Below, in pieces: positions 11,263 through 21,682 of a stretch of 64,000 bases of DNA. The DNA lies in NCBI GenBank assembly GCA_037308085.1, contig CP147779.1, forward strand, positions 2,336,001-2,400,000. The letters run 5' to 3'. The DNA is from Promethearchaeati archaeon SRVP18_Atabeyarchaeia-1. Lineage in GTDB: Archaea > Asgardarchaeota > Atabeyarchaeia > Atabeyarchaeales > Atabeyarchaeaceae. The stretch's first letter is position 1; the number at the start of each line of letters is the position of its first letter. The position numbers and the translations under genes were made by a program. The notes below the pieces were generated by a model. The model ran no database searches. It saw only the letters and a list, made by a program, of their open reading frames with translations, and was not told where the DNA came from.

Positions 11263-12417
11263 ATGTTCAAATGCCCTCAGATATACTACGGAACCGGTTC
11301 ACTCGACAGGGTTGCATCCCTCAAGGGAGACCGCGTTCTAATAGTGACGGACAGGAAGATAGAGGAACTGGGACTGGTCGAAGAGGTGCGAAAGCGCCTG
11401 AAAGAGAAAGGCGCAGAAGTGCACGTTTTTGATGATGTGGAACCTGATCCGAAGGACTCGACCGTCGCCGCTTGTGCTAAGGTTGCGTCGGAGTTCAATC
11501 CTGATCTGATTATAGGACTCGGCGGGGGATCCTCGATGGATGTCGCTAAGGGTGCATTCTTTCAGTACGAGCGACCAGATGTCAAGCTCTGTGACATGAG
11601 TGCCTTGGAGAGCTATGGGCTAAGGAGGAAAGCGAGCTTGGCAATGATACCGACGACTTCAGGAACCGGCTCGGAGGCATCGGTTGGATGCGTAATAACT
11701 GATTCGGAAACAGGCAGGAAACTCTCTCTGGCGTGCTTCGAACTGACTCCTGACGTTGCAATCCTGGATCCGTCACTAGCCTTCAAGATGCCGCCCAAGC
11801 TAAGGGCGTGCACAGGAATTGATGTTCTCGTTCACGCGGTTGAGGCTTATGTTGCTAGTATGCACAATTTCTTCGCCGATGCGCTAGCCCTCAAGGCGAT
11901 TCAGACGGTGTTCCAGTACCTTGAGAAGTCCGTCAGGACGGGTGACCAAGAGGCTATGGAAAAGATGCACTATGCTGCAACTCTTGGAGGAATATCAATG
12001 ACCAACTCCGGCCTGGGCCTAGCACATGGAATAGGACACAGTATCGGGGCGCTCTTCCATATACCTCACGGAGCAGCAGTCGGCTTCGCCCTCCCTTACA
12101 TAATTGAGTTTTGTTCACAAACATCTAGGAATAGGTTCCTAGAAATACTTGGATCCCTCGGGGTCACCGGTGTTGATTCCGACAACGCGGCGAAGAGGCT
12201 TTCAAGCATTGTCAAGGAATTGATGATCAAGATTCAGATCCCACCAACACTGAAGGGCATAGGCGTCAGCGAAGACAAGTTCAGGAAGATGATACCCAAG
12301 CTCGTGGAGTTCTCGGAGAATGATGTCACGTCAATTACTAGCCCAAGAAACGCCACCACGGAAGACTTCCAGAAAATCCTAGAATACATGCTCAAGAACA
12401 AAACCGTCGACTTCTAG
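11263..12417 (+). CDS. Iron-containing alcohol dehydrogenase
   Basis: GLGGGSSMDVAK, PTTSGTGSE, GIDVLVHAVEAY, GLAHGIGH, HIPHG. Confidence 0.95.
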   Translation: MFKCPQIYYGTGSLDRVASLKGDRVLIVTDRKIEELGLVEEVRKRLKEKGAEVHVFDDVEPDPKDSTVAACAKVASEFNPDLIIGLGGGSSMDVAKGAFFQYERPDVKLCDMSALESYGLRRKASLAMIPTTSGTGSEASVGCVITDSETGRKLSLACFELTPDVAILDPSLAFKMPPKLRACTGIDVLVHAVEAYVASMHNFFADALALKAIQTVFQYLEKSVRTGDQEAMEKMHYAATLGGISMTNSGLGLAHGIGHSIGALFHIPHGAAVGFALPYIIEFCSQTSRNRFLEILGSLGVTGVDSDNAAKRLSSIVKELMIKIQIPPTLKGIGVSEDKFRKMIPKLVEFSENDVTSITSPRNATTEDFQKILEYMLKNKTVDF

Positions 12418-12519
12418 CGGGGGGGATCAGCCACACACTTACTTTCCTCTTCCCTTTCTTTGACGGCAACTATATCATCATTGTAGAATCAAATCAGTAT
12501 TCACGTTGGAAAGTGCGGA

Positions 12520-15456
12520 ATGCCACGTGGCAAAGTCGCTTTGAGAGTCTCTTCAAAAGTGGAATGGGCAAGGAGGCCGAAGGTTATGGCTCGAGTATCC
12601 AAGAATGTATCACGAATAGAAGGGTTCCCTTATCCGAAAGATGCTAAACTTGCAGGGAAGTTTCTCACTGACTTCTTCGAGCTGTTGGGTAAGAACAAGG
12701 AGATTCTGAGATCATGGGTGGAACTAAGAGCCCTGTTTCAGATCCACGTCGAGTCCCCTGAAGTCCTTGTGTCAATTGACACTCTAAGTGGAAAAGGCAT
12801 GCGAGTGTCTCTCGGAGAAGCCAAAGGAACTCCTAACGTGATCATGACTCTAAATGCTAATACATTTCATGAACTATATTCCGGCAAATTGAGCACTTTT
12901 CAGGCGTTCGGATCAGAAGCAGTGAGAACTGATGGCGACCGGAGTCTCGTAACAAGAATGACTAAGACTCTGCCACAGAGCATCAAGGCATATACGGATT
13001 ACTGCAAGGGGCTTGGGATTCATGTCGAATCGCTAGAGAGTGAAGCCACCTCCAAGGCAGCTTTGGAGGAGAGAGCCAAGGCCGTAACCCAAGGATCGCG
13101 AACCGAACGACTCAAGAAACTATTTCTACGTCGGCAGAGGGAGATCTGTGTCGAAAGAGCGCGTTACTACACAGAGTCGTACAGAAGTACTGAGGGAGAA
13201 CCAGCGGTTATTCGCCAAGCCAAGGCACTGAGAAACGTGCTTGACAATCTCCCAGTACACATCTACGAGGACGAGATGATAGTTGGCAACATTTCGAGCA
13301 AGCCTCTGGGAGCGGGGGTCTATCCTGAGACAGTGCTGGGTCCTAGAATAGAGGGCGAACTCAATAGGATAAGCCAAAGAAGCACAAACCCCTTCACCAT
13401 AGGTGCGGGAGAAAAGCGCGAACTCCAAGAGAGTATATTCCCCTATTGGCGGGGAAAAACCATCATCGACCTAGCTAGGAAGTATTGGTCCAAGGAAGTT
13501 GCCGATCTTTTTGACAGACTGGGAGTCTTCATTTTCACCGAGATTGGTGGCATAGGACATATGCTGATAAACCACGAGCGCGTTCTCAGAATCGGACTCA
13601 ACGGAATAATCGCGGAAGCTAACAGACGCAGAAAGGGGCTCCTGAAAGAGGACATGTCCGGAGATCCAGGGAAACAACAACAACTCGAATTCCTTGAAGC
13701 CGTTGAGATCGCGTGTAAGAGCGTGATCGACTTCGCAAGGAGATACGGCGGGCTAGCGGAAGAGCTTGCTGGAACCGAAAAAGATCCTGCGAGGCGTGGA
13801 GAACTCGAGGAGATCGCCAGAATATGTCTAAAGGTGCCAGAGAACCCAGCAGACACTATCCACGAATGCTTGCAGGCGATGTTCTTCACCCATATTGCAT
13901 GTCAAGTCGAGAGTTGGGAGTCAGCCATCTCAGTCGGAAGACTAGATCAGTTCCTAAAACCGTACTACGAGGCAGATCGACAAGCTGGAAGAACGGACGA
14001 AGTGAAAGCCCAAGAATTGTTTGAATGCTTCTTCTTGAAGCTTTCCTCGGTGATACCATTATTTGACGCGGATGCCTCCATAGCATTCGCCGGATTGACA
14101 GCCTTCGCAAATGTCGTCATTGGAGGAGTCGACAAGGATGGAAACGACGCTACAAATGATCTGTCCTATGTAATCCTGAATGCCGTGAAAAGGATGAAGA
14201 CCCCGCAGCCAAACTTTGGAATTCGAGTTCACGAGACTTCGCCCGAAAGACTTCTGACTGAGGTCTGCCGCGCTGCCTTAGAAATGGGAACTCTACCTCA
14301 TGTTTTCAACGACAGGTTGGTCATCAAGTCGATGGTCAACAGGGGGATACCGATAGAAGAGGCGAGAAATTACGGGATCATCGGCTGCGTAGAACCCGCC
14401 GTTCCAGGCAGGAGCTTCACCTCATCAGACGCGGCGCTCTTCAACCTTGGACTCTGCCTTGAACTCGCCTTGAACGATGGCAAAGCAAGATTGATGTCAG
14501 GGCAGATAGGACCACAGACGGGTAGCCCCGCGTCATTCACCTCGATGGAAGGCGTCTTGAATGCATTTGCCCAGCAGGTTCAGTACCTTATCAGGAAAAT
14601 GGTTGAAGGACTCGATGTACTAGCCAGAATCCATGCCGAGGTGAAGCCTACACCCTTGGCCTCATCATTGACCGATAATTGCCTAGCGAGCGGCAAAGAT
14701 CTCACCCGCGGGGGCGCAGTCTACAACTTCACCGGACCACAGGGAGTTGGACTCGCGACGGTTGCGGATTCGCTTGCGGCAATCGATCAACTTGTCTTCA
14801 GAGACAAGAAGGCAACCATGGATGAAATCTCGAAAGCTCTAAGTAAGAACTTCGCAGGTTACGAGCCACTAAGGCAGATGCTGATCAACTCGGCGCCGAA
14901 GTATGGGACGGATAACGACCTCGCGGATACATATGCCCGCCAAGTGGGCGAGATCTTCTGCAAGGAGATTGAGAAGTACCAAAACCCTAGAAATGGGCGG
15001 TATCAGCCGGGCTTGTACTCGGTGACGATGCACTTGACGTTTGGTATGCTGACAGGAGCACTGCCGAACGGGCGCAAAGCAAGCAAACCGCTGTCGTGCG
15101 GGGTAACACCCGAACCTGGAACAGCTTCTTTCGGACCGACTGCGCTGCTCAGGTCGGCGGCGAAGTTGAATTACGAGCTTGTGTCAAACGGCGCCGTGTT
15201 GGGTCTAAAGTTCAGTCCGAGCACGTTCCGCGGTGACGAGGGCCTACGAAATCTTGGATCTTTAGTTGAGTCCTTCTTCAGGCTCGGTGGAATGCATATC
15301 CAAGCCAACTTCGTAGGCCGCGAAACTCTACTCGCAGCGCAGAAGTGTCCTGACGAATATCGCGACCTAGTTGTTCGAGTTGCAGGATATAGCGCGCTGT
15401 TCACCGATCTCGACAGACTGGTACAGGATGAGATTATTGCGCGAACCGAATTCTAG
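12520..15456 (+). CDS. Glycyl radical enzyme (PFL2/PflD/dehydratase-like) with N-terminal SCP2-like domain
   Basis: ICVERA, RQAKAL, SVGRLDQFL, PQPN, GCVEP (14383-14397), GALPNGRKA, RVAGYS (15376-15393); extra N-terminal ~180 aa with an SCP2 pattern; start may be 12586. Confidence 0.9.
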   Translation: MPRGKVALRVSSKVEWARRPKVMARVSKNVSRIEGFPYPKDAKLAGKFLTDFFELLGKNKEILRSWVELRALFQIHVESPEVLVSIDTLSGKGMRVSLGEAKGTPNVIMTLNANTFHELYSGKLSTFQAFGSEAVRTDGDRSLVTRMTKTLPQSIKAYTDYCKGLGIHVESLESEATSKAALEERAKAVTQGSRTERLKKLFLRRQREICVERARYYTESYRSTEGEPAVIRQAKALRNVLDNLPVHIYEDEMIVGNISSKPLGAGVYPETVLGPRIEGELNRISQRSTNPFTIGAGEKRELQESIFPYWRGKTIIDLARKYWSKEVADLFDRLGVFIFTEIGGIGHMLINHERVLRIGLNGIIAEANRRRKGLLKEDMSGDPGKQQQLEFLEAVEIACKSVIDFARRYGGLAEELAGTEKDPARRGELEEIARICLKVPENPADTIHECLQAMFFTHIACQVESWESAISVGRLDQFLKPYYEADRQAGRTDEVKAQELFECFFLKLSSVIPLFDADASIAFAGLTAFANVVIGGVDKDGNDATNDLSYVILNAVKRMKTPQPNFGIRVHETSPERLLTEVCRAALEMGTLPHVFNDRLVIKSMVNRGIPIEEARNYGIIGCVEPAVPGRSFTSSDAALFNLGLCLELALNDGKARLMSGQIGPQTGSPASFTSMEGVLNAFAQQVQYLIRKMVEGLDVLARIHAEVKPTPLASSLTDNCLASGKDLTRGGAVYNFTGPQGVGLATVADSLAAIDQLVFRDKKATMDEISKALSKNFAGYEPLRQMLINSAPKYGTDNDLADTYARQVGEIFCKEIEKYQNPRNGRYQPGLYSVTMHLTFGMLTGALPNGRKASKPLSCGVTPEPGTASFGPTALLRSAAKLNYELVSNGAVLGLKFSPSTFRGDEGLRNLGSLVESFFRLGGMHIQANFVGRETLLAAQKCPDEYRDLVVRVAGYSALFTDLDRLVQDEIIARTEF

Positions 15457-15513
15457 CTCTCCCTGATGATCCTCTTTGAACCTTCAAATGATAACGAAGA
15501 GGGGCACAGATTC

Positions 15514-15861
15514 ATGAAGATCCGGCTGGAGGAGGGAAAGGTCAAGGACACGATCGAACATGTGGACAAACCTTCCTTCACCGTCCTTGACTTCATCGAA
15601 ATGTTCAAAGCTCTACATCCAGATGACTGGGATCAGCTTGCAAAGAGATTCGGTGGATTTGGCGAGAAACGGAGATATACGGTCAATACCTATTTCTCCA
15701 ATCGACTCGACGCGTACTCGCAAAAGCCTACCTCGCTTCTGGTTCCTTTTGTAAGGTACAAGCAGGGGGGATTCAATGACTATAGGAGGACGACGGAGGA
15801 GGAGAGGAAAGTCTTTGGTAGTCCTTGGATAGCCATGTTCAATAAGAGGGAAAAGGCGTGA
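15514..15861 (+). CDS. Hypothetical protein
   Basis: Clean ORF with GAGGGG upstream and protein-like composition. Confidence 0.6.
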   Translation: MKIRLEEGKVKDTIEHVDKPSFTVLDFIEMFKALHPDDWDQLAKRFGGFGEKRRYTVNTYFSNRLDAYSQKPTSLLVPFVRYKQGGFNDYRRTTEEERKVFGSPWIAMFNKREKA

Positions 15862-15878: not shown

Positions 15879-18800
15879 TTACAGAGTTGTCACTTGAATC
15901 GGTACCGCGACGCCGATCATGGTCACATCGTACATGTCGTACATGATGGTGTAGAGCTTGCACCGTCCCTTGGCAGTAGCCAGTATATCTAGAACTATGC
16001 CACCATCGGTAAGGGGTTTTGAGATTGTCTGAATGTTTACACCGCCCTCGAGAAAAGCCATGTTTGCCGCTAGAAATACCTTCGCTATAGGACATATCGA
16101 GTGATCCTTTGGCACAAGTGATAGTTGTACTCGCTCCCCCAGCTTCAGTGTAGTCTTGGGAAGTTTTGCTTCGAAGTTGAACATGGACTTTATCTTCTTG
16201 TAGTCTATTGTTTCCACTCCATCGAGCCTGACTAGGAGCTTGGTGCCGGCCCGAAGTCTTCTGTTTTCAGATGATTGGTCGCTGCCAGCCTCGTCATCAA
16301 GCGCGATTGTTCTGGCTACATTCCGTGAATCCAACCCGTAGTCTTTCTCTGTCAGCGTGACTGCTCTTGTCGGATCATCTTTTGTATGCGTGAAGTAGGC
16401 GAATTTGGGCATACTATCGAAGCCCTCCATTGTGGCGAAGAGTTCGATTAGTGCGCGCGTATCAGCCGTAGAATTCAGCCTGCCTGCTACGAGCCTCTTG
16501 GCGACGAACTTGAATCCCTTCTTAAACAGCATCTGGTGTCTGACGTCATTCGAAGGGCCAAGCACACGAAGTGCCGTCGCTGTCGTCTCGAGACTTCCTC
16601 CCCAAGTCGATTGGGACGCTTCCCAGTGGACTTCACTTCCCCCTGCTCCTTCGATGGCTCTTGATTCGATCAGCTTGAGTGCATCCTTCCGCTTTCCCTT
16701 GTCGCCTACATGTAGCGCTATGTTTGCCGCGTCCTCCACAGTCGACATCGGAGCCGCGAACTTTTCATTGAGTGGGAGAAGTGCGTTATCATGTACGTCT
16801 CTCTTCACAAGTTCCTGTATCGGCCTCTCAACAAGTGGAGCCGTATCCATCTTGAACTTCTCTACCTCCATGAGGGGAGCGAGGTTCTTCAATACTTTTC
16901 TTGTGACGTCGGGAGAACCATCCTTGGCACCCTCCCAGAGGGAATACATGCCATCTTGCTGGAGGAACTTCGCCATTCTTGAGAGACCAGAACTGATCAT
17001 TTGTGTTATTTCCTGTGATGTTTCGCCGAATTTCCATGCGACGGCGAGTCCACACAGCTTTGCACTTGTCTGCTCGGCGCATCCATATGGATACTGAACA
17101 AGGGCTCTAACCGAATCTGTGAGTATCGCTTTCACAGATCCATACACGAAGACTCTCTTTCCAGCGCCGATCTGTAGCTCTTCATTCTCTTCCAGCATGC
17201 TGAGAGCGGAAACCGTTACTCGCTCACTAGCTTGTGCATTGACTTCTTTTGTCATCAGGTCGCTGCCAATCGTCGATGTTAGCTCGGCCTCGACAACCCC
17301 AGGTCCGGGCAGCTTGAAGTCCCTGATGCCGTCACCCTCGACTTCGCCTTCGTAGGAGCTTCCGTCAGGGAGCCTAATTCGCAGACTTCCTTTTCCTTCG
17401 GCAAGGTGGTAGATTGCTTTCCCATAGTATTCGTCGCCATAATCTATCATCGAAGGTATGTCTAAATCAACCACGACACTCTTGTCGGCTTCCACGCTGG
17501 CAGACTTTGAGATATAGTCGACGCCGGTGAATGCGTAGACTTGCACCTTCCAGCGTGTTATCGTGTCTCCGAGCTTGATGCGCTCCTCGTGAACACCATC
17601 CATCTCGATGAGCTTGTATGCTAGTAGCTTAGGGAACCAAGCTCTTCTTGGCGTTACAGTCATTGCCGCCTGCACCGTTGTGGTAATGACAGTTGTCAAT
17701 TTGTCTCTATCTGCCATGTTGTAAGCGCCGACACCCACGGCCATCAGTTTCGCCGGGGTGGGTGATCTGGCAGAAAATGAAGGTGGTGGCGCGGCCATCT
17801 TTGCCATTGGTGCACCCGCGGCCATCATGTGAGCCAAGGGACGTACCGCTTCTTCTGCTTCAACCTCATGTACCTCTTTGCGTTCGATGAATTGCTCCAT
17901 CAGCTCCTGGATGCTTGGAAGCGCCCGTAAATGGTTGTAGATGTCTTTTCCGAGCTTTCCTGTAATATTCTCGGTGTCGAGTCTCTCGTCGAATACCATG
18001 AGAAGGCACTCAGCCTTTCTGTTTGATTCGAGAGTTATCGTCACCTCTTCGCCTGGCTCCGCTTTCTCAGGAGCCCTGATCTGCAGTTTGAGAGTCTCGG
18101 GGTGAAACACGACACTTCTCCCTTCAAACAAAGTGCTCTCATCGGCGTTGATCATGCATCCGACGAAGACAATCTGGTATGGAGCGCTATTATCAAACGA
18201 TAATTCTAGACCCTCTTTTGCAGAAGCCTTAGATGCTTGCCTAGCCTCACCGGTGAAGGGGTTAACGGTGTATACTGAGAGGTAGTCGAGGTTTCTAGTC
18301 ACCTGAACCTCGATCTTCTCCGACTCGGCGTTCCTGACTATGACAGGCGTCGTCGAGGCACCTCGTGGTGCCCAGTTGATCCCGCGAAGACTCCTCCCAT
18401 CAGGAATCGGGACTAGCGCCATATTCACGATCTCACCCAGGTTGCCGACCTGGATCTCCTGGCGTTCCTCGACTCTTGTGGACTGAAGCGTGACGGAAGC
18501 TGTGTTCCCGTCCGGAGTGGAGAATTCCAGTCTGAACGGTCCAGTGTGTCCACTTAGGCGCCATTGGAACCCAAGCGATCCGTTTTTGGCGTCGAAGGAC
18601 TTCTCCTCAACGACGACTTTGCAAAACTCGCAGTATAGTCCGATTCTAACGGAACCAGTGTAGGGCTGGTTGAGAACAGTCATCTCGAACTCCGCATCTA
18701 GGGCGTCACCACTGATAACTTGCTTCTTGATCTGGGCCAGCATGGGGCTGAGGGTGTGCTGGGCTATTGTGAAGTCACAGCTGAAGGTCTTCCTCTCCGC

Positions 18801-19241
18801 CTCAGTTGCCTTGCCAATCTTCCGCTCTGACGTAGTGGTTACTGCCGCAGTGTATTCACCCGTTTCCTCCGCGCCTCTTAGCTCATAGACATATACTCCA
18901 TAGTCGTCGAGCGTGAAGTCGTCGCTCGTCATAGCACGCTTGCCTGCAAACATGACCTCCAAGTGGGCAGTGTTGCGCCCACAGCCCGGCGATGCAATAA
19001 GCAGCCTCACGACGTCACCAGGATTGTAGACTCTCCTGTCCGATACGACTGCACCGAAGGCAAGAGGACCAATCTTGGCGGGCGCATAGGTCTGCCCCTT
19101 GATCTTCAGATCCTTGCCTAGCTCCCCTATTCTCGGGTATATGACCCGATCATCCAGGTCATAAATGAAATAATGCCCGACCTTAACTCCTTTCGCTGCA
19201 CCACCACTTTCTCTCAACAGTATCACGCTCCGCATTATCAC
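15879..19241 (-). CDS. Alpha-2-macroglobulin-family thioester protein
   Basis: SDRRVYNPGDVV (MG2-like), LDDYGVY, A/M/P-rich bait-like segment, RAWFP, DTITRWKV, YPYGCAEQT (GCAEQ at 17070-17084), GMYSLW, LETTATAL, NSTADT. Confidence 0.88.
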   Translation of the reverse strand: MIMRSVILLRESGGAAKGVKVGHYFIYDLDDRVIYPRIGELGKDLKIKGQTYAPAKIGPLAFGAVVSDRRVYNPGDVVRLLIASPGCGRNTAHLEVMFAGKRAMTSDDFTLDDYGVYVYELRGAEETGEYTAAVTTTSERKIGKATEAERKTFSCDFTIAQHTLSPMLAQIKKQVISGDALDAEFEMTVLNQPYTGSVRIGLYCEFCKVVVEEKSFDAKNGSLGFQWRLSGHTGPFRLEFSTPDGNTASVTLQSTRVEERQEIQVGNLGEIVNMALVPIPDGRSLRGINWAPRGASTTPVIVRNAESEKIEVQVTRNLDYLSVYTVNPFTGEARQASKASAKEGLELSFDNSAPYQIVFVGCMINADESTLFEGRSVVFHPETLKLQIRAPEKAEPGEEVTITLESNRKAECLLMVFDERLDTENITGKLGKDIYNHLRALPSIQELMEQFIERKEVHEVEAEEAVRPLAHMMAAGAPMAKMAAPPPSFSARSPTPAKLMAVGVGAYNMADRDKLTTVITTTVQAAMTVTPRRAWFPKLLAYKLIEMDGVHEERIKLGDTITRWKVQVYAFTGVDYISKSASVEADKSVVVDLDIPSMIDYGDEYYGKAIYHLAEGKGSLRIRLPDGSSYEGEVEGDGIRDFKLPGPGVVEAELTSTIGSDLMTKEVNAQASERVTVSALSMLEENEELQIGAGKRVFVYGSVKAILTDSVRALVQYPYGCAEQTSAKLCGLAVAWKFGETSQEITQMISSGLSRMAKFLQQDGMYSLWEGAKDGSPDVTRKVLKNLAPLMEVEKFKMDTAPLVERPIQELVKRDVHDNALLPLNEKFAAPMSTVEDAANIALHVGDKGKRKDALKLIESRAIEGAGGSEVHWEASQSTWGGSLETTATALRVLGPSNDVRHQMLFKKGFKFVAKRLVAGRLNSTADTRALIELFATMEGFDSMPKFAYFTHTKDDPTRAVTLTEKDYGLDSRNVARTIALDDEAGSDQSSENRRLRAGTKLLVRLDGVETIDYKKIKSMFNFEAKLPKTTLKLGERVQLSLVPKDHSICPIAKVFLAANMAFLEGGVNIQTISKPLTDGGIVLDILATAKGRCKLYTIMYDMYDVTMIGVAVPIQVTTL

Positions 19242-19501
19242 AAATAGAACAGAAATCCGCCAATACCGACTTCGATGGAGTCGGAGTCATTGTAGCATCC
19301 TGAGAACCTGACCCCATTACACTGTTGGTGGGATCAGCAGTTTGCCAAATAAACTCTTCGAAAAAGAAATCGCCTCAAAGCGCCACAGTCTGAGATATAT
19401 GTGGATTGCTTGCGAGTTATGAAAACGCTTATATCCGAAAATCTGACATAGACTAGACAGGGTTCTGGCCATCCGAGAGCAGACGGACGTCCGCTCCGGC
19501 G

Positions 19502-21682
19502 ATGCAGAGGGGGACAATAGTGAAGAGAGGAAAATGCCTCTTCTCAACCGTCATTATTCTCTTTATTCTAGTCACAGTGGTGTCGCCCATGGCGGGCGAA
19601 ACCAACCCTGTGACCGGGAAATCACAAGCGGCGTCTGGGAAGACAGGGCAGGACCCAGCAGGGTTCGGCGCGGGGGTGCCCGCCCAAAGAGATCCGGCAA
19701 CTCCCGTGGGCTCTGACACTAATTGGTTCGGAGTGACTTTCCCAAGTGGGCACTACTACAGCTTTTACCAGATTCAGACGCCATACGGTGTAGGTCAACA
19801 TATCGACACCGTAGGAACCAGCGATTATAACTACACCTTTATGGGTTGCACGACGGCAAACTATACGGTCGACTCCAGTGGGAGCATACAAGTAACTGGC
19901 TGGTTCAGGCAGTACGATATACTACCTCCCGATGCACTCGACCACAGAGTGCTGGACATCTACGTGCTGGATGCAGGCACTCTTGCTCATATCCTGAACC
20001 AGCACATCCTTAACGGCACTGATGGGACTGGGTGGGTATACAAGAACGTGACAGTAGATGGGTTGACCCCTGGAGTGACGGTGAAGATAGGATTCGGTAT
20101 GGGAAAATGGTGGACTGCAGACTGGCAACTAACACGTGAATGGGTAATGCTTAGTAACGCCAGTAACGGCACCGTAGTGTCCGGAAATGCTTCTTGGACA
20201 GGAACGACGAACCCGGGTGGCTACCACTACAACTTATATCAGGTCCCAACGCCCTACGGCCAAGGCTGTCACATCGACAGCGCGGGTAGCAGCAGTGTAC
20301 CAGCCCAAGGCGGATACGACTTCTTCGCCTTCAGCAATGTGAGCTACCCGGTCGGTAGCGACGGAGGCATAGAGGTGCGAGGCTACTTCAGGCAGAGTGA
20401 CATATTTGATTCCTTCACGATGCCTGGAAGGAGAGAAGTGAGAATATTCATTATGTATTCAAACGATAATGCCACGATCGTCAAGCAGCTGCCAGTCATC
20501 AGTTACACCTACGGTACTGGCTGGGTGCACAGAGAAGTAATGGTTACTGGGTTAAGCCCTGGAAGCCTTGTCAAGATAGGCGTTGGAAGACACGACGGCT
20601 GGTCCACCGACTGGCAATTGACGGCCGAATGGGCGGCAATAGAGGTCGTAGGCAATGTCTCCTGGAGTAACATGACAGGATCAGGCCCGCAAGTGACCAG
20701 TCCAGTAGGTAACTACTGTAACTTCTATCCGATCATAACGCCGTATGGTCCGGGCCACCATATTGACACTAATGGGAGTGGCGGCAACCCCAACAACTAT
20801 GCCTTCTACGGCTGCACTCTTGCAGACTACCCTGTCGGCAACGATGGAAGTCTAGAGGTTAAGGGACACTTCAGGCAAGATGATTCGCTGGCGCCGCTCC
20901 TTTTCCCCCAAAGGAGACTTCTCTGGGTTTTCATCATGTACTCTGGTGACAACTACACGATAGTACGCGAACAGATAGTCCTCAACTATACTGATGGAAC
21001 AGGCTGGTTGTACAGAGATATTACCATCAACGGTTTGACGCCAGGGAGTTTCGTCAGGATAGGGTTTGGCAGGTACAACTGCTGGTCAACCGACTACAAG
21101 TTGGTAGTGGAGTGGGCAGGAGTAGAGATTAGCAGCCCAACTTGGGGTCCCTTTGGCGCCGGTGGAGGAGGAGGTGGAGGAGGCGGACTGGGCGGCCCTG
21201 ATTTCACGCCAAATCTCGTTTTGATCATTGCATCAGGTGGCACGTTGATAACGGTCCTGGGCATTCTCGTCGTTGTATCCAGACGCAGAGCAGGAGCGTC
21301 ACATCGCGAAAATGCGCCTCAGAGAGATTTGCGAATGCGGATAGAGCCACAGGAGACTCGCGCCGTTCTCGTCCCTCCTTCAATGAGGTGTCCAAGTTGT
21401 GGTGGCGCCATCGAGCCTCCAGATTCAGCGTATTGCGTACACTGCGGCACAAAGCTTCAAGCACCCGCTGCAGGGAACGTGACCGCCCGACAGAGTGAGA
21501 CCTCAAGCACCCTCAAGGGCTGCATGATTTGCGGAATGCAAATCAAGGGGAGTGATATAGCAGTAAGGTGTCCCTACTGTGGAAATAGGGCGCACAGGAT
21601 TCATATGCTCGAGTGGCTTCATGTGAAAGATTACTGCCCAGTGTGCCAAAGGCACCTCGATGAACAGGAATTCGGAGAATAG
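19502..21682 (+). CDS. Single-pass membrane protein: signal peptide, three ~155-aa extracellular repeats, poly-Gly linker, TM, Zn ribbon, C-terminal RING-like finger
   Basis: Hydrophobic N-terminus; three TPYG.G.HID...G.FRQ.D...GTGW...GL.PG..V.IG.G...W..D..L..EW units; TM followed by RRR; CPSC..CVHC; CMIC-x12-CPYC-x3-AHRIHMLEWL-x5-CPVC. Confidence 0.85.
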   Translation: MQRGTIVKRGKCLFSTVIILFILVTVVSPMAGETNPVTGKSQAASGKTGQDPAGFGAGVPAQRDPATPVGSDTNWFGVTFPSGHYYSFYQIQTPYGVGQHIDTVGTSDYNYTFMGCTTANYTVDSSGSIQVTGWFRQYDILPPDALDHRVLDIYVLDAGTLAHILNQHILNGTDGTGWVYKNVTVDGLTPGVTVKIGFGMGKWWTADWQLTREWVMLSNASNGTVVSGNASWTGTTNPGGYHYNLYQVPTPYGQGCHIDSAGSSSVPAQGGYDFFAFSNVSYPVGSDGGIEVRGYFRQSDIFDSFTMPGRREVRIFIMYSNDNATIVKQLPVISYTYGTGWVHREVMVTGLSPGSLVKIGVGRHDGWSTDWQLTAEWAAIEVVGNVSWSNMTGSGPQVTSPVGNYCNFYPIITPYGPGHHIDTNGSGGNPNNYAFYGCTLADYPVGNDGSLEVKGHFRQDDSLAPLLFPQRRLLWVFIMYSGDNYTIVREQIVLNYTDGTGWLYRDITINGLTPGSFVRIGFGRYNCWSTDYKLVVEWAGVEISSPTWGPFGAGGGGGGGGGLGGPDFTPNLVLIIASGGTLITVLGILVVVSRRRAGASHRENAPQRDLRMRIEPQETRAVLVPPSMRCPSCGGAIEPPDSAYCVHCGTKLQAPAAGNVTARQSETSSTLKGCMICGMQIKGSDIAVRCPYCGNRAHRIHMLEWLHVKDYCPVCQRHLDEQEFGE

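What the first reader, a model, noticed from the sequence alone, without database searches (positions are those of the whole stretch)
19502..21682. Receptor-like transmembrane RING protein (ectodomain-TM-Zn ribbon-RING)
Seen: signal peptide, ectodomain rich in N-glycosylation sequons, Gly9 linker, one TM, a cytoplasmic zinc ribbon and a RING-like finger with the conserved W and CPxC (about 21521-21650). Known: eukaryotic ectodomain-TM-RING E3 ligases (RNF43/ZNRF3, GRAIL, plant RMR) ubiquitinate membrane cargo for ESCRT sorting, and Asgard archaea encode ubiquitin and ESCRT systems. Inference: a ligand-sensing surface E3 ligase. It is transcribed divergently from the A2M gene across 260 bp, so the two may form a co-regulated defence or sensing locus.
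Basis: partly seen in the sequence, partly recalled or inferred. Interest (0 to 1): 0.75.

Follow-up and report, generated by a model that had tools for sequence, protein, structure and literature searches.

The report
Asgard surface protein with RING tail
An Asgard archaeon (Atabeyarchaeia) encodes a glycosylated single-pass surface protein with three sugar-binding-type modules outside the cell and, inside, a zinc ribbon plus a RING finger of the same family as its own ubiquitin-operon ligase. It is probably a membrane-anchored ubiquitin ligase built like eukaryotic receptor-type E3s, and its link to the neighbouring A2M gene is incidental.

Summary
These are an N-terminal signal/anchor, an ectodomain of three 160-aa repeats with 14 N-glycosylation sequons (4.3 expected), a Gly9 linker, one TM helix, a C4 zinc ribbon and a C-terminal finger.

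The finger is a true RING. It is 49% identical to the small RING protein in this genome's E2/Ub/E1/ESCRT cluster. A family profile hits only RING-H2 E3 ligases at the top of the PDB, and the AlphaFold model superposes on RNF165 at 1.2 A.

The genome is the complete Atabeyarchaeia-1 genome and holds 23-29 such tails on varied N-terminal modules. The tail is found in 145 of 201 Asgard genomes searched, and in the 61 also searched for the E2 it occurs only where the E2 does, apart from one weak match.

The ectodomain repeat is an unannotated CBM4/9/22-like jelly roll, rare in Asgards.

The proposed A2M link fails. The sister genome keeps A2M next to NikR with no RING gene between them.

No activity, ligand or expression data exist. 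This scan has already found the same class in other Asgard genomes and twice in this one.

Verdict: a probable membrane-anchored E3 ligase, a new variant of a known kind.

The parts
19502..21682 (+). Whole gene: 726-aa type-I-like membrane protein (signal/anchor, 3 jelly-roll repeats, Gly linker, TM, zinc ribbon, RING).
   Evidence: ORF list and translation. An identical protein, apart from a start 6 codons later, is in the database (P0003).
19242..19501 (.). 260-bp divergent intergenic region shared with the A2M gene. It contains AT-rich TATA-like boxes (e.g. CTTATATCC about 65 nt upstream of the ATG). Promoter function was not tested.
   Evidence: Sequence read. It has no similarity to the NikR-A2M spacer of the sister genome.
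19502..19597 (+). N-terminal signal peptide or signal anchor (residues 1-32: basic n-region, hydrophobic core LFSTVIILFILVTVV, SPMAG).
   Evidence: Translation and hydropathy peak 2.48 at residues 12-30. Cleavage was not tested.
19706..20176 (+). Ectodomain repeat 1 (residues 69-225), CBM-like beta jelly roll.
   Evidence: Internal repeat alignment and HMM boundaries.
20177..20656 (+). Ectodomain repeat 2 (residues 226-385), the copy that was folded.
   Evidence: AF2 model: pLDDT 88, pTM 0.85, all-beta. VIA-align Z 9-11 to CBM22, CBM15, CBM4, CBM11 and porphyran/alginate CBMs. Foldseek hits CBMs and Eph LBD. ESM Atlas neighbours are CBM_4_9 / GH10 proteins at TM 0.60-0.67.
20657..21139 (+). 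Ectodomain repeat 3 (residues 386-546).
21161..21187 (+). Gly9 flexible linker (residues 554-562) between the last repeat and the membrane.
   Evidence: Translation.
21215..21280 (+). Transmembrane helix (residues 572-593), followed by the basic stretch SRRRAGASHR.
   Evidence: Hydropathy scan and sequence. The positive-inside rule places the tail in the cytoplasm.
21389..21445 (+). C4 zinc ribbon, CPSCG-x10-CVHCG (residues 630-648).
   Evidence: Pfam DUF7575 31.1 bits and DZR 31.1 bits, both above cut-off when the tail is scored alone. The four Cys are invariant in 91 tails. A ribbon lies within 60 aa upstream of the finger in 101 of 128 representatives.
21521..21646 (+). RING finger of the archaeal srfp type (residues 674-715), with ligand order C2-C2-H2-C2.
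   Evidence: 49% identity to the operon srfp. The profile hits RING-H2 E3s in the PDB, led by RNF24 at 1.1e-9. The AF2 RING part has pLDDT 87-95 with a beta-beta-alpha core. It superposes on RNF165 with rmsd 1.1-1.2 A and Z 7.0. E2-contact positions are conserved.

Best explanation
The gene encodes a single-pass, N-glycosylated surface protein of Ca. Atabeyarchaeum (Asgard). Its cytoplasmic tail is a membrane-tethered RING-type ubiquitin ligase module.

Shown here:
- Topology and domain order.
- The ectodomain is three copies of an unannotated beta jelly roll of the CBM4/9/22 fold class.
- The tail is a zinc ribbon plus a RING finger of the same sequence family as the small RING protein (srfp) encoded between the E2-like UEV-Vps23/JAB genes and the Ub/E2/E1 genes of this genome.
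- The residues that contact the E2 in eukaryotic RINGs and in the tested archaeal srfp are conserved: Val/Ile after the first Cys, the helix Trp, and Pro after the seventh ligand.
- The tail is a portable module, placed at the C-terminus of many proteins with different extracellular or cytoplasmic binding domains.

Inferred:
- The RING recruits the genome's single canonical E2 charged with ubiquitin. It then ubiquitinates itself or neighbouring membrane proteins at the inner face of the membrane.
- The CBM-like ectodomain binds an external glycan or a glycosylated partner, and so selects where or when this happens.
- The ubiquitin mark is read by the UEV-Vps23/ESCRT machinery or by the proteasome.

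The gene is a lineage-specific domain shuffle that sits between A2M and NikR by accident of insertion or loss.
For: 1. The genome has a complete Ub-ESCRT cluster at C1:323409-333300: Vps4, ESCRT-II, EAP30, Vps28, UEV-Vps23, JAB, srfp (zf-RING_2 29.6 bits, above the 27.3 cut-off), ubiquitin, E2 and E1.
2. The finger is 49% identical, without gaps, to that srfp and has the identical ligand spacing.
3. A profile of 91 tails finds RING-H2 E3s in the PDB: RNF24 at 1.1e-9, then Arkadia, RNF165, EL5, RNF126, RNF38, gp78, Hrd1 and ZNRF3. The alignment puts H-x2-H on RING ligands 5/6 and the Trp in register.
4. The AF2 RING part has pLDDT 87-95. All 50 top VIA-align matches are RING or U-box domains, including RNF165 at Z 7.0 and rmsd 1.2 A over 48 residues (Foldseek).
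5. E2-contact positions: V/I 91 of 91, W 87 of 91, P 90 of 91. The same positions (I30, W58) were needed for activity of the C. subterraneum srfp (PMC5654768). A Helarchaeial operon RING E3 was active in vitro (bioRxiv 10.1101/2023.07.25.550441).
6. Phyletic pattern: the tail profile hits 145 of 201 Asgard genomes. Among the 61 also searched for the E2, 48 have both and 12 have neither. One has only a weak RING-like hit. In many genomes a top hit lies within 1 kb of the E2.
7. Modularity: there are 23-29 tails in this genome on arrestin, HEAT, SBP_bac_5, FG-GAP and CarboxypepD_reg modules. There are 1039 representatives at E<=1e-3. Of the 148 best representatives other than the query itself, 128 carry the exact finger pattern. 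In 127 of these it is C-terminal, and 89 have a TM upstream. Their ectodomains include SBP_bac_5, FG-GAP, fn3 and DUF5122.
8. Extracellular location: sequon excess, a basic stretch after the TM, and the CBM-like fold.
Against: - No biochemical activity, zinc content, E2 binding, ligand or expression has been shown for this protein or for any TM member of the family.
- The canonical linchpin Arg directly after the last Cys is not conserved. It is Gln here with Arg one residue later, and Gly in 43 of 91 tails, so E2~Ub activation may be weak or use other residues.
- On the whole protein, neither zf-RING_2 (19.2 bits) nor Prok-RING_1 (22.2 bits) reaches Pfam's cut-off. The tail alone passes Prok-RING_1 only on model positions 5-32 of 54.
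- The co-occurrence with the E2 is partly trivial, because the profile also detects the operon srfp and related genomes are not independent.
- Carbohydrate binding rests on fold class alone, at 6-13% identity.
Confidence: 0.68

Rival explanations
1. The tail is a non-catalytic zinc module. The protein would be a surface adhesin or glycan-binding (S-layer-associated) glycoprotein. Its ribbon plus RING-like finger would only anchor it to a cytoplasmic partner, dimerise it, or transmit a signal without ubiquitin transfer.
For: The linchpin Arg is not conserved. Pfam RING models are below cut-off on the whole protein. Zinc ribbons on the cytoplasmic side of archaeal membrane proteins are common (the DUF7575/DZR hits). 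No activity data exist.
Against: The E2-contact residues are almost invariant across 91 tails, which is not needed for a mere anchor. The finger is a close paralogue of the operon E3. The family was found only in genomes that have the E2. One E2 with more than 20 RINGs is the eukaryotic E2/E3 hierarchy.
Confidence: 0.2
2. One reading: the RING protein and the divergent A2M gene form a co-regulated defence or sensing pair.
For: The two genes are divergent across 260 bp. A2M has an intact GCAEQ thioester motif.
Against: The complete sister genome G012 keeps FeADH-GRE-A2M-A2M-NikR in the same order, with no RING gene and no remnant between A2M and NikR. None of the RING-tail matches to G012 listed lies near its A2M genes. 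The 11-kb contig of homologue P0005 has no A2M. The ectodomain repeat was not found in G012 or G023.
Confidence: 0.05
3. The finger is another binuclear treble-clef domain (PHD, LIM or FYVE-like) that reads a peptide or lipid rather than an E2.
For: Foldseek lists the MLL3 PHD6 domain at rank 3, and a FYVE domain appears at E 0.03 in the PDB profile search.
Against: The PHD alignment has rmsd 12 A. No PHD or LIM domain appears among the 50 best VIA-align rows, which are all RING or U-box. Twelve of the 13 best profile hits are RING-H2 E3s or RNF4; the exception is a designed zinc finger, Aart, at E 6.8e-6. The RING-specific Trp and the Pro after ligand 7 are conserved.
Confidence: 0.04

Closest known systems
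Archaeal small RING finger proteins (srfp) of ubiquitin operons: Caldiarchaeum subterraneum srfp (PMC5654768) and the Helarchaeial operon RING E3 (bioRxiv 10.1101/2023.07.25.550441)
   Same: Same sequence family and same unusual ligand order: C-x2-C in place of C-x-H, and H-x2-H in place of H-x2-C. The paper on the C. subterraneum protein already notes the shifted C3/H4 and an extra Cys. The E2-contact Ile/Val and Trp are the same. The finger is 49% identical to this genome's own operon srfp.
   Different: srfps are soluble proteins of about 80-100 aa encoded beside E2, Ub and E1. Here the finger ends a 726-aa glycosylated membrane protein, is preceded by a zinc ribbon, and lies 2 Mb from the operon.
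Eukaryotic ectodomain-TM-RING-H2 ligases: PA-TM-RING (RNF13, GRAIL/RNF128, plant RMR), RNF24, ZNRF3/RNF43
   Same: Same layout: signal peptide, glycosylated ectodomain, one TM, cytoplasmic RING. RNF24 is the best PDB sequence hit (1.1e-9). RNF13 and ZNRF3 are also hit at about 1e-3.
   Different: The ectodomain is three CBM-like jelly rolls, not a PA domain. The RING ligand order is C4H2C2 rather than C3H2C3. A zinc ribbon is added. There is no evidence of orthology, and the similarity is that of RING-H2 fingers in general.
Pfam Prok-RING_1 (PF14446) and zf-RING_2 (PF13639)
   Same: Both models match the finger. The tail alone scores 30.5 bits on Prok-RING_1 (cut-off 29.1), and zf-RING_2 is matched end to end at positions 3-44 of 44.
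   Different: Only positions 5-32 of 54 of Prok-RING_1 are matched. zf-RING_2 scores 23.3 bits, below its 27.3 cut-off, and the whole protein passes neither model.
Carbohydrate-binding modules of the beta-sandwich class (CBM4, CBM9, CBM11, CBM15, CBM22, CBM29) and the Eph-receptor ligand-binding domain
   Same: Same jelly-roll fold: Z 9-11, rmsd 2.6-3.3 A over 120-140 of 160 residues. ESM Atlas neighbours carry CBM_4_9.
   Different: Identity is 6-13% and no Pfam or NCBIfam family matches. The modules are not attached to a glycoside hydrolase, and sugar binding is untested.

Membership tests
RING finger (RING-H2 class) E3 domain | Eight Cys/His zinc ligands in four pairs, with spacing compatible with a cross-brace. 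| tested here: met
   The pattern is C-x2-C-x12-C-x2-C-x4-H-x2-H-x10-C-x2-C. All eight ligands are invariant in 91 tails. Pairs 2 and 3 are C-x2-C and H-x2-H instead of C-x-H and H-x2-C, so this is a variant ligand order.
RING finger (RING-H2 class) E3 domain | Significant sequence similarity to established RING domains. | tested here: met
   The profile of 91 tails against the PDB gives RNF24 1.1e-9, Arkadia 6.7e-8, RNF165 7e-8 and EL5 6e-7. The single protein stays below the zf-RING_2 cut-off, at 23.3 against 27.3 bits.
RING finger (RING-H2 class) E3 domain | RING/U-box beta-beta-alpha fold. | tested here: met
   The AF2 model has pLDDT 87-95 with strands 68-70 and 77-79 and helix 80-89. RNF165 matches at rmsd 1.1-1.2 A, TM 0.80 and Z 7.0. 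The top 50 VIA rows are all RING or U-box. This is a predicted model, not a solved structure.
RING finger (RING-H2 class) E3 domain | Hydrophobic E2-binding residues: Ile/Val after ligand 1, Trp in the helix, Pro after ligand 7. | tested here: met
   I676, W705 and P713 are present. Family conservation is 91/91, 87/91 and 90/91.
RING finger (RING-H2 class) E3 domain | Linchpin Arg/Lys directly after ligand 8, which locks E2~Ub in the closed state. | tested here: inconclusive
   The residue here is Gln716, followed by Arg717. Across the family position +1 is Gly in 43 and Arg in 13 of 91. Many active RINGs lack it.
RING finger (RING-H2 class) E3 domain | Binds an E2 and stimulates ubiquitin transfer. 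| not testable with these tools
   This needs biochemistry. A cognate E1, E2 and Ub are encoded in the genome.
Archaeal srfp (operon small RING finger protein) | Same finger family as the RING encoded in the Ub/E2/E1 operon. | tested here: met
   BLASTP 1e-22, 49% identity over 53 residues, no gaps. The tail profile recovers E2-adjacent srfps in many Asgard genomes.
Archaeal srfp (operon small RING finger protein) | Small soluble protein encoded inside the ubiquitin operon. | tested here: not met
   This is a 726-aa membrane protein at C1:2355502, while the operon is at C1:0.33 Mb. It is a paralogue with a different architecture.
PA-TM-RING / ZNRF3-RNF43 receptor-type E3s | Protease-associated (PA) type ectodomain. 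| tested here: not met
   No Pfam family matches the ectodomain even at E<=1. The fold is a CBM-like jelly roll.
PA-TM-RING / ZNRF3-RNF43 receptor-type E3s | Signal peptide, ectodomain, single TM and cytoplasmic RING-H2 topology. | tested here: met
   Hydropathy, the basic stretch after the TM and the sequon excess outside. It works like these proteins in layout only.
Carbohydrate-binding module (CBM4/9/22-like) | Beta-sandwich jelly-roll fold. | tested here: met
   Z 9-11.2 to several CBM families. Atlas TM 0.60-0.67 to CBM_4_9 proteins.
Carbohydrate-binding module (CBM4/9/22-like) | Sequence membership in a CBM family, and sugar binding. | tested here: inconclusive
   There is no Pfam or NCBIfam hit and identity is 6-13%. 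Binding is not testable here.

The most novel reading that the evidence does not exclude
Asgard archaea run a eukaryote-style hierarchy of one E1 and one E2 with dozens of substrate-specific RING E3s. A large share of these are receptor-type membrane ligases. Their swapped ectodomains (CBM-like repeats here; solute-binding proteins, FG-GAP propellers and fn3 elsewhere) would couple what the cell meets outside to ubiquitin marking and ESCRT-dependent removal of membrane proteins. That would be a prokaryotic antecedent of receptor down-regulation by RNF43/ZNRF3, GRAIL and arrestin-E3 pairs.
Probability: 0.35. Interest if true: 0.8.

Novelty: new variant of a known kind. Interest (0 to 1): 0.58.

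Why it matters
Ubiquitin-dependent sorting of membrane proteins by ESCRT is a hallmark of the eukaryotic endomembrane system. In Asgard archaea, published tests so far cover only soluble operon RING E3s and an ESCRT-I substrate.

A large family of membrane-tethered RING tails with interchangeable ectodomains would supply the missing ligases that could mark membrane cargo. It also offers defined, small, expressible constructs (a 130-aa tail plus the cognate E1, E2 and Ub) to test whether receptor-type E3 ligases predate eukaryotes.

This member adds an undescribed CBM-like surface domain. It also shows that the family grows by recent domain shuffling.

I found no paper in the searchable library that describes these membrane RING proteins. 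That does not prove none exists.

Tried and rejected
- Complex prediction of the cognate E2 (alignment A4) with the RING (A2, residues 46-107) gave 'no answer', with scores 0.24 and 0.11 against a mark of 0.32. This is evidence neither for nor against binding.
- Expression: no RNA holder was listed for window 19242-21682 among the public runs.
- Pfam and NCBIfam give no family for the ectodomain.
- The ectodomain query found nothing in the two sister genomes.
- The A2M-RING spacer has no similarity to the A2M-NikR spacer of G012, and no remnant of the gene is visible there. Insertion and loss therefore cannot be told apart.
- PHD, LIM and FYVE readings were rejected on rmsd and ranking.
- Literature searches for Asgard transmembrane RING ligases found only general mentions of RING domains among eukaryotic signature proteins (ESPs).
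- I did not map the C. subterraneum R69 linchpin onto this protein, because its sequence was not in hand.
Full report
**Observation.** Window 19502-21682 (+) is one open frame of 726 codons. The public gene call begins six codons later at a GTG (P0003).
- a basic N-terminus with a 16-residue hydrophobic core ending in SPMAG (residues 1-32);
- a 534-residue Gly/Thr/Ser/Tyr-rich region;
- a run of nine glycines (554-562);
- a hydrophobic helix (572-593) followed by SRRRAGASHR;
- a C4 zinc ribbon, CPSCG-x10-CVHCG (630-648);
- the finger C-x2-C-x12-C-x2-C-x4-H-x2-H-x10-C-x2-C (674-715, nt 21521-21646).

The ectodomain has 14 N-x-S/T sequons against 4.3 +/- 1.9 in shuffles (0 of 5000 reached 14). 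That is about six times the density of long ORFs in the genome, and the tail has one. The basic stretch after the helix and the sequon excess put the repeats outside the cell and the zinc modules inside.

**Organism and ubiquitin system.** The window lies at C1:2336001-2400000 of a single 2,808,651-bp contig. This is exactly the length reported for the complete Atabeyarchaeia-1 genome ('Ca. Atabeyarchaeum') from wetland soil (PMC11291895). At C1:323409-333300 the genome has one cluster encoding the following:
- Vps4, ESCRT-II, EAP30 and Vps28;
- a UEV-Vps23 fusion and a JAB deubiquitinase;
- an 83-aa RING protein (zf-RING_2 29.6 bits, above the cut-off);
- ubiquitin, a UQ_con E2 with HPN and the catalytic Cys, and a ThiF E1.

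**The finger is a RING of the archaeal srfp type.**
- It aligns without gaps to the operon RING at 49% identity (1e-22), with the same ligand spacing.
- A profile of 91 homologous tails (A2; all 12 ribbon and finger ligands invariant) finds RING-H2 E3 ligases as 12 of its 13 best PDB hits. The best is RNF24 at 1.1e-9, followed by Arkadia, RNF165, EL5, RNF126, RNF38, gp78, Hrd1, ZNRF3 and RNF13.
- That alignment explains the odd ligand order. H-x2-H sits on RING ligands 5 and 6, and the Trp is in register four residues later. The second Cys of CPxC is ligand 3, and the first Cys replaces the missing His4. The same shift was noted for the biochemically active C. subterraneum srfp (PMC5654768).
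- The AlphaFold model has pLDDT 87-95 over the RING, with the beta-hairpin and helix expected. It superposes on RNF165 at 1.1-1.2 A (TM 0.80, Z 7.0), and all 50 best VIA-align rows are RING or U-box domains.
- The one PHD hit has rmsd 12 A.
- The E2-contact positions are nearly invariant: V/I 91/91, W 87/91, P 90/91. The classical linchpin Arg after the last Cys is not conserved; it is Gln then Arg here, and Gly in 43 of 91 tails.
- Pfam on the single protein is borderline.

**The tail is a portable module.**
- This genome has 29 tblastn matches and 23 exact-pattern fingers. Many lie in arrays between 2.01 and 2.18 Mb.
- Their N-terminal parts include three tandem arrestin folds, HEAT repeats, an SBP_bac_5 solute-binding ectodomain with a TM, an FG-GAP propeller with a TM, and a CarboxypepD_reg domain with a TM.
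- In a library of 1.8 billion representatives the tail has 1039 relatives at E<=1e-3.
- Of the 148 best representatives other than the query itself, 128 carry the exact finger pattern. In 127 of these it lies at the C-terminus. Eighty-nine have a TM upstream and 101 have the zinc ribbon.
- Ten long members carry SBP_bac_5, FG-GAP, fn3, DUF5122 or unknown ectodomains.
- In 201 Asgard genomes the tail profile hits 145, with 1 to at least 23 copies each.
- Among the 61 genomes also searched for the E2, 48 have both and 12 have neither. One has only a weak RING-like hit. This fits dependence on the ubiquitin system. However, the profile also detects the operon srfp, and related genomes are not independent.

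**The ectodomain.**
- Three repeats of about 160 aa are 42-45% identical to one another. They match no Pfam or NCBIfam family.
- Repeat 2 folds confidently (pLDDT 88, pTM 0.85) as a ten-stranded beta sandwich.
- An exhaustive structural comparison gives Z 9-11.2 to carbohydrate-binding modules (CBM22, CBM15, CBM4, CBM11, CBM29, and porphyran- and alginate-binding CBMs). Reelin repeats and Eph ligand-binding domains score lower, at Z 9.2-10.0 (Foldseek).
- ESM Atlas neighbours carry CBM_4_9 or GH10.
- The same repeat occurs in metagenomic proteins. Some also carry the same tail: P0004, and P0005 with an FG-GAP propeller. Others carry reprolysin-like metalloproteases or a weak, sub-threshold PKD match instead.
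- Among 201 Asgard genomes it was found in only nine. These are mostly in a family that lacks both the RING and the E2, and not in the two closest relatives.
- It is therefore a mobile extracellular binding module that was joined to the RING tail recently. Sugar binding is inferred from fold class only.

**The A2M link.**
- The A2M gene (15879-19241, -) has A2M, bait-region and TED domains and GCAEQ. It is divergent across 260 bp.
- In the complete sister genome G012 (2,756,679 bp, Atabeyarchaeia-2) the block FeADH-GRE-A2M-A2M-NikR is kept in the same order and orientation. About 210 bp and no RING gene lie between A2M and NikR, and the spacers are unrelated.
- The 11-kb contig of homologue P0005 has no A2M.
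- The linkage is therefore not conserved, and I treat it as incidental.

**Mechanism.** I read this as a membrane-anchored RING E3.
- The tail would recruit the single canonical E2 charged with ubiquitin at the inner membrane face. It would then mark itself or neighbouring membrane proteins.
- The glycosylated CBM-like ectodomain would provide binding specificity outside.
- UEV-Vps23/ESCRT or the proteasome would read the mark.
- Architecture, homology and genomic context are shown. Catalysis, ligand and downstream fate are inferred.
- The main rival is a non-catalytic zinc tail on a surface glycan-binding protein. It is kept alive by the missing linchpin and the absence of any assay.

**What gave nothing.** Complex prediction gave no verdict, and no RNA run holds the locus. 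Neither counts for or against.

**Novelty.** RING E3s of archaeal ubiquitin operons are known and have been tested (PMC5654768; bioRxiv 10.1101/2023.07.25.550441). I found no paper describing the membrane-tethered, ectodomain-bearing family. This scan has already reported the same class in other Asgard genomes and twice in this genome. This gene is a further member, with a new ectodomain. I rate it a new variant of a known kind.

Noticed in passing
window 15879-19241 (-): The 1120-aa alpha-2-macroglobulin has A2M, bait-region and TED domains and an intact GCAEQ thioester motif. No hydrophobic leader is visible at its N-terminus. The sister genome G012 has two tandem copies, 65% and 52% identical to this one.
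   Followed up: partly
own genome C1:323409-333300 (locus L028): A complete Ub-ESCRT cluster in one run: Vps4 (MIT-AAA-Vps4_C), ESCRT-II, EAP30, Vps28, a UEV-Vps23 fusion, JAB, an 83-aa RING srfp, ubiquitin, E2 and E1.
   Followed up: yes
own genome C1:2026880-2031514 (loci L066-L068): Three tandem genes each join Arrestin_N/C (Spo0M-like) folds to the zinc ribbon plus RING tail. Adaptor and ligase are thus in one chain. The scan has already reported this (e1-5499672).
   Followed up: partly
own genome C1:1849898-1852381 (L065) and metagenomic P0011: An extracellular solute-binding protein domain (SBP_bac_5) is followed by a TM, a zinc ribbon and a RING. The architecture recurs in an independent metagenomic representative. 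It suggests a nutrient-binding ectodomain coupled to a ligase tail.
   Followed up: partly
own genome C1:1675269-1677248 (L063): A soluble 659-aa HEAT-repeat protein ends in a zinc ribbon and a RING. Its zf-RING_2 score of 27.5 bits is above the cut-off.
   Followed up: no
own genome C1:2.015-2.18 Mb: Most RING-tail paralogues lie in a few arrays: 2016064-2031514, 2154391-2159628 and 2169541-2178528. This points to recent tandem expansion.
   Followed up: no
window 11263-15861 (+): An Fe-alcohol dehydrogenase is followed by a glycyl-radical enzyme with an N-terminal SCP2 domain. The block is syntenic with G012, where the Fe-ADH is duplicated.
   Followed up: no
Asgard phylum sample: One large Asgard family (f6; 43 genomes sampled for the RING, 6 for the E2) lacks the E2 in all 6 genomes searched for it. 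It has the RING tail in only 1 of 43, a weak match. Yet it holds most of the genomes that carry the CBM-like repeat in other protein contexts.
   Followed up: no
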